From: the human T2T-CHM13v2.0 reference genome, Homo sapiens
NCBI RefSeq assembly: GCF_009914755.1
Contig: NC_060941.1
Direction: 5' to 3' (one strand)
Length of the DNA stretch: 64,000 bases
Every line of letters begins with the position of its first letter. The first letter of the stretch is position 1. Below the pieces are notes generated by a model, which was given only the letters and a program-made list of their open reading frames with translations, was not told the DNA's origin and did no database searches. Made by a program: the position numbers and the translations under genes. Of the stretch, positions 318 to 46,499 are shown piece by piece.

Positions 318-466
318 TCACAGGGCGAAGAGGGCATCCTCTGACCGCTCTGGCTTCTTCCGGCCAGAAGGGTTTGAGGCTGGGGCAGGAGCCTCCATGG
401 GGGGCGAGGGGAGGTCGGGAACCATTTCAGCAGCTTTGGCTCTTTCTTCAAGGAATTTATCAAACT
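318..466 (-). CDS. TOM1L2: TOM1L2 exon 15 coding part (aa 459-507, [14 protein letters not shown]...EDALFAL*)
   Basis: Acceptor ttgcAG at 467-468, phase 1; [12 protein letters not shown] and EDALFAL are the TOM1-family C-terminus; TGA at 318-320. Confidence 0.98.
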
Positions 467-3575: not shown

Positions 3576-3635
3576 CAGGTCGGTCCTGAGCCACACCTCA
3601 ATGTCGTCCATGACAGATGGCTGCGCAACGGGGAT
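3576..3635 (-). CDS. TOM1L2: TOM1L2 exon 13 (60 nt, IPVAQPSVMDDIEVWLRTDL; myosin VI-binding IEVWL motif), symmetric phase 0-0
   Basis: catAG acceptor, GTGAGA donor; IEVWL corresponds to TOM1 IEQWL. Confidence 0.96.
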
Positions 3636-9936: not shown

Positions 9937-10452
9937 TGTGTATTCTTCAAGAGGTTTCAAATCATTTTGACGGACTTAGTGGATATAAGCAACTATATTA
10001 TAAAAATCTGTCAAGCCTAGGACTGCCAAATTCACAGGCACTGGGCTACAGAGGGCTTCCCTGACTGGTCAGATGCTTTGAGTCTGTTCCCTTAGAATTG
10101 TTCCCTCCCAAGCAAAAGCCACAGTAACTTGTGCTCATCCTGGAAAAGTGAATACTGCTCGGAGCTCCGGAGACAGTAAAAGGAAGGAAAGGACCCTCTC
10201 CTCATCCCTGCTAATGTCCCAGACTCTTAAGGCCTGGGGACAGGGAGGTATTTTTGGGACTGGGAATCTGTGGCTTACAGAGATTATGCAAAAATAGGAG
10301 GGGAAATTTGGCACCCCTGCCAGAAAGAAAGCGTGTGGCCTTGTACTGTCTGATTCACAAAGGCTCGGCAGGTCACAAGAGGAAGACATGAGCTGTTACA
10401 CAGGTAGGGGCTGGGGTGGACAGCAGGCTTGGCTCGGCTGGTGACTCCTCAC

Positions 10453-10539
10453 CATTCCTTGGGTTATAAGCCAGCTGTCTATGGGCTCCAGGTCAGACTC
10501 CCCACCTCTACCTCTCTTCTGGGCCGAGGACAGAAAAGT
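10453..10539 (-). CDS. TOM1L2: Alternative in-frame TOM1L2 cassette exon (87 nt, TFLSSAQKRGRGGESDLEPIDSWLITQGM); 66-nt form if the CAG acceptor at 10519-10520 is used
   Basis: Pyrimidine tract with 71-nt AG-free zone, ATG|GTGAGG donor, phase 0-0, no stop, peptide resembles exon 13. Confidence 0.72.
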
Positions 10540-10691
10540 CTCAGAAAGAAAAGTCACAGCAAGACCCATGAGAAAGAAGTCAATAGCACATATTGTGGAA
10601 ACAGAAAAGTCACTCTTCAGACGTGATCCTTTGCCACGTAAGGAAATGTGATGCCCTGCTCCCAACCTCCACCCCAGCACGTCCCCCTTAC

Positions 10692-14161: not shown

Positions 14162-14237
14162 CCCTTCTGAACTCTGTTTTCGATTGTCTAGTGCAGAAGC
14201 AAGTCCTCCGACAGCCTGAGGATCCTCATAGGTTACC
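14162..14237 (-). CDS. TOM1L2: TOM1L2 exon 12 (76 nt, VTYEDPQAVGGLASALDNRKQSSEG)
   Basis: tccAG acceptor, GTAGGT donor, phase 2-0. Confidence 0.97.
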
Positions 14238-46349: not shown

Positions 46350-46499
46350 CTGGATCAGAGCAAGCACTTTGTCCTGTACAATGGTGGGAGGGTTGTTCTT
46401 GGGAGATATAATTTTGACCAGAACACTGTCGATGAAATCTCGGTTGGCCACAAGGATGTGGAAGCGGTGGCCACAGTTCTTCACACATGTCTCCAGCAC
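46350..46499 (-). CDS. TOM1L2: TOM1L2 exon 4 (150 nt, [14 protein letters not shown]...KVLALIQ; VHS core)
   Basis: atcAG acceptor, GTAGGT donor, phase 0-0; VHS signature LETCVKNCG. Confidence 0.98.

What the first reader, a model, noticed from the sequence alone, without database searches (positions are those of the whole stretch)
10453..10539. Hidden in-frame exon encoding a second myosin VI-type IxxWL motif
The peptide DLEPIDSWLITQ aligns with exon 13 VMDDIEVWLRTD (L/M, E/D, I, D/E, W, L, T). Both exons are phase 0-0 with GTGAG donors, suggesting exon duplication or a tandem motif. It is absent from the canonical 507-aa protein and would give 536 aa. The first AG after a 71-nt AG-free zone is a rare GAG acceptor, and a CAG 21 nt further gives a 66-nt in-frame variant. 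It also contains an RGRGG arginine-methylation-like motif. I recall this peptide in some predicted isoforms, so the exon may be annotated; I know of no described function for it.
Basis: partly seen in the sequence, partly recalled or inferred. Interest (0 to 1): 0.8.

Follow-up and report, generated by a model that had tools for sequence, protein, structure and literature searches.

The report
Ancient TOM1L2 alternative exon, second WL motif
This is a real, already annotated and very old alternative exon of the trafficking adaptor TOM1L2 that adds a short tryptophan-leucine helix just before the motif known to bind the ciliary BBSome complex, not a myosin VI motif as first thought.

Summary
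Window 10453-10539 (- strand) is an 87-nt, phase 0-0 cassette exon of TOM1L2 with a GAG acceptor, in-frame CAG and AAG acceptors 21 and 24 nt further in, and a GTGAGG donor. It is annotated in human and other vertebrate isoforms.

It is ancient. Its core EPIDxWLxxQGM occurs in named TOM1L2 isoforms from bichir and sturgeon to human. A homologous exon occurs in TOM1 of a teleost and a salamander. Its W lies 21 residues before the next exon's W in 151 of 152 stored proteins.

The neighbouring DIEVWLR is the published BBSome-binding motif, and mutating it leaves MYO6 binding intact. The MYO6-binding helix lies in the last two exons.

AlphaFold2 gives three helical islands in the disordered tail: the exon core, the BBSome motif and the MYO6 motif.

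Best reading: an isoform-specific binding motif, most plausibly a second BBSome contact. This is untested. RGRGG is not conserved, and exon duplication is unproven (p about 0.005-0.02). I found no paper describing the exon.

The parts
10453..10539 (-). Alternative cassette exon, long form (87 nt, 29 aa, TFLSSAQKRGRGGESDLEPIDSWLITQGM), using the GAG acceptor
   Evidence: Found spliced between ..SSEG and IPVAQ.. in named human proteins P0014 and P0016. 44 of 98 retrieved proteins carry the long form.
10453..10518 (-). 66-nt (22 aa) form from the in-frame CAG acceptor. A 63-nt form (10453-10515) uses the adjacent AAG (NAGNAG).
   Evidence: AGs at +21 and +24. 41 of 98 retrieved proteins have the 22-aa form and 4 of 98 the 21-aa form.
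10453..10494 (-). Conserved core DLEPIDSWLITQGM. The invariant P and W lie in a predicted short helix.
   Evidence: LEPIDSWLI[TA]QGM in 98 of 98 proteins. EPIDxWL in 63 of 64 further vertebrate hits. P53 and W57 invariant over 34 sequences that include TOM1. AF2 helix 53-60 with block pLDDT 84.
10540..10612 (-). Acceptor region: pyrimidine-rich tract (75-80% pyrimidine), 71-nt AG-free zone, branch-point-like TTGAC and CTCAT at -41 and -30
10447..10452 (-). Donor site GTGAGG
3576..3635 (-). Constitutive exon IPVAQPSVMDDIEVWLRTDL. Bases 3585-3605 encode DIEVWLR, the published BBSome-binding motif.
   Evidence: translation. (Shinde et al.: EVWLR / VWLR motif, interacting region of 30 aa, separable from MYO6 binding). 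M72, D74, E76, W78 and L79 invariant.
405..464 (-). [20 protein letters not shown]: the MYO6-binding helix of TOM1L2. Its first residues come from exon 1506-1542.
   Evidence: aligns to PDB 6j56_C residues 8-27, E 0.0017. (contact residues). F97, F100, L101, R104 and A105 invariant.
14162..14237 (-). Upstream constitutive exon (..VTYEDPQAVGGLASALDNRKQSSEG) to which the cassette is spliced

Best explanation
The stretch is a genuine alternative cassette exon of TOM1L2. It has been conserved since before the TOM1/TOM1L2 duplication. It inserts 21-29 residues into the disordered C-terminal domain.

The N-terminal half of the insert is a variable basic/glycine linker. The C-terminal half (EPIDxWLxxQGM in TOM1L2; xxDWMxx[QRK]G[ML] in TOM1) is a short amphipathic helix-forming linear motif. 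Its tryptophan is invariant and sits exactly 21 residues before the tryptophan of the BBSome-binding motif DIEVWLR.

Most likely it works as an isoform-specific protein-docking site. The best candidate is a second W-L contact for the BBSome. Exon-including TOM1L2 (and TOM1) would then bind the BBSome bivalently or with altered affinity, tuning retrieval of K63-ubiquitinated receptors from cilia. The MYO6-binding helix further downstream would be untouched.

Shown here: the exon, its frame, its annotation, its conservation, the fixed spacing and the helical propensity. Taken from print: the identity of the two neighbouring motifs. Inferred and untested: that the exon motif binds anything, and that the partner is the BBSome.
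For: Exon anatomy and frame.

Annotation as a cassette in human and many mammals:
- 98 proteins at E<=10 among 100 candidates, and all 98 carry LEPIDSWLI[TA]QGM.

Deep conservation:
- One search gave 679 proteins at E<=10 among 8000 scored candidates, of which 120 were listed.
- Named exon-bearing TOM1L2 isoforms come from primates, rodents, a golden mole, marsupials, birds, turtles, lizards, tuatara, frogs, a caecilian, bichir, sturgeons, paddlefish, gar and teleosts.
- TOM1 isoforms with a homologous insert come from Cololabis saira (P0234) and Pleurodeles waltl (P0103).

Spacing and invariance:
- W-to-W spacing is 21 in 151 of 152 stored proteins that have both motifs. The exception, P0084, lacks IPVAQ.
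- Over 34 aligned sequences the only invariant columns of this region are P53 and W57 (exon), P65, M72/D74/E76/W78/L79 (BBSome motif) and E96/F97/F100/L101/R104/A105. Of the last six, F97, F100, L101, R104 and A105 correspond to MYO6 contact residues named.
- So invariance here tracks mapped contact residues.

Structure prediction:
- AF2 on the 144-aa fragment P0056 gives three helices in an otherwise coil chain: 53-60 (exon core; block pLDDT 84, the highest of the chain), 72-81 (BBSome motif) and 94-109 (MYO6 motif).
- The TOM1 fragment P0111 gives the same three islands.

Resemblance to the BBSome motif:
- Both match hydrophobic-x-x-W-[LM].
- The profile-profile alignment puts W on W. Score 13.5, reached by 4 of 200 column permutations.
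- Shinde et al. propose a W-L dipeptide as the common BBSome-binding motif of TOM1L2 (VWLR) and TOM1 (QWLS).
Against: - No binding data exist for this exon. The mapping by Shinde et al. used a short isoform and NP_001076437, the protein of the selected 507-aa transcript, which lacks the exon. The exon is therefore dispensable for BBSome binding in vitro.
- The resemblance to the BBSome motif is weak statistically: p about 0.005-0.02 and hhalign probability 19.7%.
- The conserved flanks differ. Conservation runs C-terminal of W in the exon (WLxxQGM) and N-terminal of W in the BBSome motif (MDDIExWL).
- TOM1 versions have W-M, not W-L, and lack the I-D of TOM1L2.
- Conservation figures come from sequences retrieved by similarity to the exon, so divergent or exon-less lineages are under-sampled.
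- Most retrieved isoforms are computer-predicted models.
- AF2 helical islands indicate propensity, not binding.
- A 2025 preprint (10.1101/2025.04.24.650332, passages read) questions whether TOM1L2 and the BBSome form the main intraciliary adaptor.
- I have no data on the tissues or level of inclusion.
Confidence: 0.35

Rival explanations
1. The exon encodes a docking motif for a partner other than the BBSome, for example another endosomal, clathrin-adaptor or ciliary protein. The W-L resemblance to the neighbouring motif would then be convergent or coincidental.
For: The exon's own conserved signature, P-x-x-x-W-[LM]-x-x-[QRK]-G-[ML] followed by IP, differs from MDDIExWL. The resemblance tests are only marginal. 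The exon is not needed for BBSome binding in the published assays. The helical island and the invariant W argue for a binding site without naming the partner.
Against: No known motif class was matched. The LIR core [WFY]xx[LIV] is not met (W-L-I-T in TOM1L2, W-M-V-R in TOM1; read). No solved structure resembles the peptide (best hit E 0.59, an unrelated bacterial protein). The fixed 21-residue register with the BBSome motif in 151 of 152 proteins suggests the two act together.
Confidence: 0.35
2. The exon acts within the molecule or as a spacer. Its helix would pack on or compete with the neighbouring BBSome-binding helix (autoinhibition or masking), or it would simply change the linker before that motif.
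For: Invariant spacing and an invariant connecting segment, QGM-IPVxQ (P65 invariant; G62, M63, I64 and Q68 at 33 of 34; V66 at 31 of 34). There are two adjacent short amphipathic helices.
Against: pTM is only 0.20-0.27, so no confident tertiary packing can be claimed. I did not inspect helix-helix contacts. A pure spacer would not need an invariant W and P across about 430 My (the age is recalled, not from a call).
Confidence: 0.12
3. One reading: the exon adds a second myosin VI-binding motif of the IxxWL type.
For: TOM1L2 does bind MYO6 and the exon lies in the same C-terminal domain. No experiment has tested this exon against MYO6.
Against: The template motif DIEVWL is not a MYO6 motif. 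By my residue count Tom1(392-437) holds it, and that fragment shows no detectable binding to the MYO6 cargo-binding domain. The 30-aa BBSome-interacting fragment does not bind MYO6, and motif mutants keep MYO6 binding. The MYO6 contact residues F, F, L, R and A all lie in the last two exons. The exon shows no similarity to the crystallised peptide 6j56_C.
Confidence: 0.04
4. The exon is splicing noise or an annotation artefact with no protein-level function. Conservation would then reflect an intronic regulatory element.
For: The first acceptor is a weak GAG. Most supporting proteins are predicted models. I could not see expression data.
Against: The frame, the phase and a 12-residue peptide core are kept from ray-finned fishes to human and in the paralogue TOM1. 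In unnamed genomic read-through ORFs the exon core is identical while the intron-encoded tail diverges (P0002 against P0003-P0009). Spliced unnamed records (P0056, P0006, P0111) join the exon to the next exon.
Confidence: 0.04

Closest known systems
BBSome-binding motif of TOM1L2/TOM1 (EVWLR, minimal VWLR; QWLS in TOM1), Shinde et al., bioRxiv 10.1101/2022.09.23.509287
   Same: Both lie in the same protein and the same disordered C-terminal domain, 21 residues apart. Both have a W followed by L (or M) with a hydrophobic residue three positions before W and acidic residues upstream. Both are predicted as short helices.
   Different: The exon motif is conserved C-terminal of W (WLxxQGM), while the published motif is conserved N-terminal of W (MDDIExWL). 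The TOM1 exon has W-M. The exon was absent from the constructs used to map BBSome binding, and its binding is untested.
Tom1 myosin VI-binding motif (residues 437-463; PDB 6J56), Hu et al. 2019, PMC6673701
   Same: It is also a short segment of the TOM1-family C-terminal domain that becomes helical on binding. Like the exon core, it shows up as an AF2 helical island with invariant contact residues.
   Different: The sequence class is different (FxxFLxxRAxAA...LPxL) and it lies in different exons (the last two). The exon peptide shows no similarity to it.
Alternative exons that encode short linear motifs in disordered regions and rewire interactions (general class; recalled from the literature, no call)
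   Same: It is a short, frame-preserving cassette in a disordered region that carries a conserved motif flanked by a variable linker, with several acceptors.
   Different: Here the motif duplicates the key dipeptide of an adjacent constitutive motif at a fixed register, and the exon is shared by two paralogues. Tissue regulation is unknown.

Membership tests
Annotated, conserved alternative cassette exon | Usable splice sites, frame-preserving length and no stop | tested here: met
   AG acceptors at 0, +21 and +24; GTGAGG donor; 87, 66 or 63 nt, all multiples of 3; phase 0-0.
Annotated, conserved alternative cassette exon | Present in deposited or annotated isoforms and absent from others | tested here: met
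   The hub table lists 10453-10539 under other transcripts. P0014 and P0016 (human) contain it. The selected 507-aa transcript lacks it.
Annotated, conserved alternative cassette exon | Peptide conserved across species | tested here: met
   EPIDxWL in 63 of 64 further vertebrate hits, from bichir to mammals.
Annotated, conserved alternative cassette exon | Measured inclusion in tissues (spliced reads, PSI) | not testable with these tools
   No RNA-seq resource was available. The only indirect support is the spliced unnamed records P0056, P0006 and P0111.
Myosin VI-binding motif (Tom1 MBM) | Helix carrying the contact residues F444, F447, L448, R451, A452, A454, A455, L458, P459 and L461 | tested here: not met
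   The exon peptide has none of this pattern. There is no match to 6j56_C, whereas the last exon matches it.
Myosin VI-binding motif (Tom1 MBM) | Binding to the MYO6 cargo-binding domain | not testable with these tools
   MYO6 sequence could not be obtained as one chain. For the look-alike DIEVWL motif the published result is negative.
BBSome-binding motif (W-L dipeptide, VWLR/QWLS) | W-L dipeptide in the TOM1/TOM1L2 C-terminal domain | tested here: met
   S-W-L in human. W invariant, with L at 30 of 34 and M at 4 of 34.
BBSome-binding motif (W-L dipeptide, VWLR/QWLS) | Sequence relatedness to the mapped motif beyond the dipeptide | tested here: inconclusive
   score 25, reached by 293 of 20000 shuffles and 22 of 4691 genomic 29-mers; hhalign probability 19.7%, with 4 of 200 permutations reaching the score.
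BBSome-binding motif (W-L dipeptide, VWLR/QWLS) | Direct capture of purified BBSome, lost on mutation of the motif | not testable with these tools
   This needs a bench assay. The published assays used constructs without the exon.
Tandem exon duplication | Significant similarity of the two exons at peptide or DNA level | tested here: inconclusive
   Only peptide-level tests were run, and they were marginal. The lengths differ (87 against 60 nt). The phase and the GTGAG donor are shared. I made no DNA-level comparison of the two exons.
RGG/RG arginine-methylation motif | Conserved clustered RG/RGG repeats | tested here: not met
   Human has RGRGG. The aligned position of the second R is K in 24 of 33 sequences, and the neighbouring columns are variable.
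LC3-interacting region (LIR) | Core [WFY]-x-x-[LIV] (motif recalled, not from a call) | tested here: not met
   W-L-I-T in TOM1L2. W-M-V-R, W-M-T-S, W-M-M-A and W-M-I-K in the TOM1-type forms.

The most novel reading that the evidence does not exclude
The cassette is an ancient switch shared by TOM1L2 and TOM1. It would turn a monovalent BBSome adaptor into a bivalent one, with two W-[LM] helices held 21 residues apart, and so define a cilium-dedicated isoform of an otherwise endosomal ESCRT-0-like protein. Published mapping of the TOM1L2-BBSome interface would then have missed half of the interface, because only exon-less constructs were used.
Probability: 0.25. Interest if true: 0.65.

Novelty: new member of a known kind. 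Interest (0 to 1): 0.45.

Why it matters

An isoform that carries a second W-L helix next to the BBSome-binding motif could change affinity, stoichiometry or partner choice. It has been kept for the whole history of bony vertebrates and in both paralogues. It was absent from the constructs used to define the interface.

This gives a cheap, specific experiment: peptide pull-down of the BBSome with and without the exon, with a W-L to A-A control. It also gives a reason to check which tissues include the exon.

It corrects a tempting mislabel as well. The W-L motif class in TOM1 proteins belongs to the BBSome, not to myosin VI.

Tried and rejected
1. MYO6 reading. Rejected on the published mapping and the PDB alignment.

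2. Own-genome search with the exon peptide. It found only the exon itself.

3. Paralogue TOM1.
- A look-alike in the homologous TOM1 intron (L007:8409-8462, MGGGCGKSLSDWMVRQGM, cag|..|gtgagc, phase 0-0) scored E 0.026 in a 10-kb locus.
- 14 of 300 dinucleotide shuffles of the 7065-nt intron reach its 19.2 bits, so it is weak on its own.
- A search with it found no named TOM1 isoform (2 unnamed ORFs among 12 candidates).
- It gained support only later, from the unnamed spliced record P0111 and from fish and salamander TOM1 isoforms.

4. Alternative last exon by read-through. The frame stays open past the donor (..QGMVRSHQPSQACCPPQPLPV*). This form was seen only in unnamed genomic ORFs and in a few models that look mis-predicted (P0051, P0057, P0137, P0174). 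I rejected it as the main form.

5. Literature.
- Searches found no description of the exon.
- (peptide string) found 0 papers.
- (TOM1L2 with splicing-factor names) returned nothing useful.
- PMC12569832 and PMC4675533 mention TOM1L2 only in passing.
- The journal version of Shinde et al. (PMC10133032) is not held. bioRxiv supplements are closed, so their Figs S7-S8 were seen only as cited in the text.

8. The residue numbers in Shinde et al. (386-DIE-388) differ by one from my count for a form lacking the 50-aa exon (387). I identified the motif by its letters, not by number.

Full report
**1. What is there**

On the - strand, window 10453-10539 reads TFLSSAQKRGRGGESDLEPIDSWLITQGM. I joined the annotated TOM1L2 exons in silico. 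The stretch enters and leaves in phase 0. It lies between exon 14162-14237 (..KQSSEG) and exon 3576-3635 (IPVAQPSVMDDIEVWLRTDL, also phase 0-0), and it keeps the frame to the normal stop.

- The acceptor is a GAG, and it is the first AG after a 71-nt AG-free, pyrimidine-rich zone.
- A CAG 21 nt inside the exon and an AAG 24 nt inside give 66- and 63-nt in-frame forms.
- The donor is GTGAGG.

**2. It is annotated and used as a cassette**

A word-indexed search of 5.8 billion proteins used a 40-aa translation spanning the exon. It returned 98 proteins at E<=10 among 100 candidates. Among them were 'TOM1-like protein 2 isoform X1 [Homo sapiens]' (P0014, 491 aa) and a 483-aa human entry (P0016). 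In both, the exon sits between ..SSEG and IPVAQ.. and the normal C-terminus follows.

All 98 carry LEPIDSWLI[TA]QGM. By exon form they divide as follows:
- 44 have the 29-aa form.
- 41 have the 22-aa form.
- 4 have the 21-aa form.
- 9 are read-through or odd models.

**3. It is ancient and shared with TOM1**

I ran a full HMMER scan of 1.84 billion cluster representatives with P0056, an unnamed 144-aa spliced C-terminal fragment that carries the exon. It gave 78 hits at E<=0.001. Several divergent representatives show two tryptophan motifs 21 residues apart. Some of these have TOM1-type sequence, for example P0103, P0111, P0133 and P0156.

A profile of nine exon segments (A2) then found 679 proteins at E<=10 among 8000 scored candidates, of which 120 were listed. 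Named exon-bearing TOM1L2 isoforms come from:
- primates, rodents (Marmota, Sciurus, Dipodomys), a golden mole and marsupials;
- many birds, turtles, lizards and the tuatara;
- frogs and a caecilian;
- bichir, sturgeons, paddlefish, gar and teleosts.

Named TOM1 isoforms with a homologous insert come from Cololabis saira and Pleurodeles waltl.

Among the 64 new proteins, 63 have EPIDxWL and all 64 have W[LM]xxxG[ML]IP. Across all stored proteins that have both motifs, the W-to-W distance is 21 in 151 of 152.

The human TOM1 gene holds an intact look-alike in the homologous intron (L007:8409-8462). On its own it is weak: 14 of 300 shuffles match its score, and no named isoform was found. It does match the unnamed spliced record P0111.

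The exon therefore predates the TOM1/TOM1L2 split.

One caveat applies to all these figures. The sets were retrieved by similarity to the exon, so they show where the exon exists, not where it is missing.

**4. What the neighbouring motifs are**

It is not.

Hu et al. 2019 (PMC6673701; passages read):
- They map the MYO6-binding motif of Tom1 to residues 437-463, with contacts F444, F447, L448, R451, A452, A454, A455, L458, P459 and L461.
- They report no detectable binding for Tom1(392-437), which by my own residue count holds the DIEQWL stretch.
- The crystallised peptide (PDB 6j56_C) aligns to [20 protein letters not shown] of the last TOM1L2 exon. It aligns to neither W-L exon.

Shinde et al. 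(bioRxiv 10.1101/2022.09.23.509287; section 8 and passages read):
- They map a 30-residue BBSome-interacting region, with EVWLR (minimal VWLR) as the BBSome-binding motif.
- They note QWLS in TOM1 and propose a W-L dipeptide as the common determinant.
- They state that mutating or deleting this motif abolishes BBSome binding but not MYO6 binding.
- Their constructs were a short isoform and NP_001076437. The latter is the protein of the selected 507-aa transcript, which lacks the cassette, so the cassette appears not to have been tested.

**5. How similar are the two W-L exons?**

The resemblance is modest:
- The ungapped 12-residue match scores 25. That score is reached by 293 of 20000 shuffles and by 22 of 4691 random genomic 29-mers.
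- A profile-profile comparison built from 34 vertebrate sequences aligns W on W, with score 13.5 and probability 19.7%. 4 of 200 column permutations reach that score.
- Conservation lies C-terminal of W in the exon (WLxxQGM) and N-terminal of W in the BBSome motif (MDDIExWL).

Exon duplication is therefore neither shown nor excluded. The shared feature is hydrophobic-x-x-W-[LM] on a short helix.

**6. Is the exon core a binding motif?**

Over 34 aligned sequences that include TOM1 forms, the invariant columns of this disordered region are:
- P53 and W57 of the exon;
- P65;
- M72, D74, E76, W78 and L79 of the BBSome motif;
- E96, F97, F100, L101, R104 and A105 of the MYO6 motif.

Of the last six, F97, F100, L101, R104 and A105 correspond to contact residues named by Hu et al..

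AlphaFold2 on P0056 with that alignment gives a coil chain (mean pLDDT 61.7, pTM 0.20) with three helices: 53-60 (exon core, block pLDDT 84), 72-81 and 94-109. The TOM1 fragment P0111 gives the same three islands.

It is established knowledge (recalled, not from a call) that such confidence islands in disordered regions often mark segments that fold on binding.

The N-terminal half of the exon is variable. The human RGRGG is RGKGG or other sequences in most species. This argues against a conserved arginine-methylation site.

**7. Best explanation and rivals**

The exon most likely supplies an isoform-specific docking helix. Because it repeats the W-[LM] feature of the adjacent BBSome-binding motif at a fixed register, the BBSome is the best candidate partner (confidence about 0.35).

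The rivals are:
- an unknown other partner, about equally likely (0.35);
- an intramolecular or spacer role (0.12);
- the MYO6 reading (0.04);
- a non-functional exon (0.04).

None of these can be settled without binding and expression data.

**8. Novelty**

The exon is already in gene annotation. In the searchable library I found no paper that describes it or its peptide. Searches (TOM1L2, myosin VI, isoform; TOM1L2, alternative splicing, exon; TOM1L2, BBSome; TOM1L2 isoform/splice/exon/transcript/variant) turned up none. One search (peptide string) found 0 papers.

Subscription papers, the journal version of Shinde et al. and bioRxiv supplements could not be seen.

It is a new, uncharacterised instance of a known kind: a motif-bearing alternative exon in a disordered region. 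It yields a specific, testable hypothesis for ciliary trafficking.

Noticed in passing
L007:8409-8462 (+), in the TOM1 intron on contig C22 of the own genome: Human TOM1 holds an intact candidate cassette exon, homologous in position, phase and ending (..QGM|GTGAG) to the TOM1L2 exon. It is 54 nt, reads MGGGCGKSLSDWMVRQGM, and has a CAG acceptor and a GTGAGC donor. No named mammalian TOM1 isoform with it was found. An unnamed spliced record (P0111) and TOM1 isoforms of a teleost and a salamander carry the counterpart.
   Followed up: partly
window 10515-10560 (-): Three in-frame acceptors (GAG at 0; CAG and AAG at +21 and +24, a NAGNAG pair) are all represented in annotated isoforms of different species. 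The long TFL[SF]S form also recurs in birds, marsupials and one teleost. A 9-nt direct repeat, GACTTTTCT, straddles the first acceptor, so the intron-encoded residues read TFLSE just before the exon's TFLSS.
   Followed up: partly
window 10396-10452 (-): The frame stays open for 18 codons past the donor (VRSHQPSQACCPPQPLPV, then a stop). Intron retention would therefore give a truncated protein lacking both the BBSome and the MYO6 motifs. This form was seen in unnamed genomic ORFs and in a few predicted models (P0002, P0051, P0057).
   Followed up: no
window 318-466, 1506-1542 and 3576-3635 (-): In the disordered C-terminal domain, most of the columns invariant over 34 vertebrate TOM1L2/TOM1 sequences belong to the published BBSome motif or match named MYO6 contact residues; apart from P53 and W57 of the exon, only P65 and E96 fall outside them. 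This is a useful internal control for reading conservation here.
   Followed up: yes
Proteins P0043 and P0045 (Trachypithecus), P0190, P0199 and P0204: Several predicted isoforms read through the donor of the exon after DIEVWLRTDL (..VRLDFS.. or ..VRPF..) and lose the MYO6 motif. They may be model errors or a second truncating event.
   Followed up: no
Protein P0196: A 529-aa TOM1L2-like protein of Platysternon megacephalum is named 'alpha-2A adrenergic receptor' by its source, although it carries VHS and GAT domains and the TOM1L2 tail. The name is probably wrong.
   Followed up: no
window 3585-3605 (-), compared with bioRxiv 10.1101/2022.09.23.509287: The paper numbers the motif 386-DIE-388 in its short isoform. 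Removing the 50-aa exon 46350-46499 from the 507-aa form gives 387-389 by my count. This one-residue offset is unexplained.
   Followed up: partly
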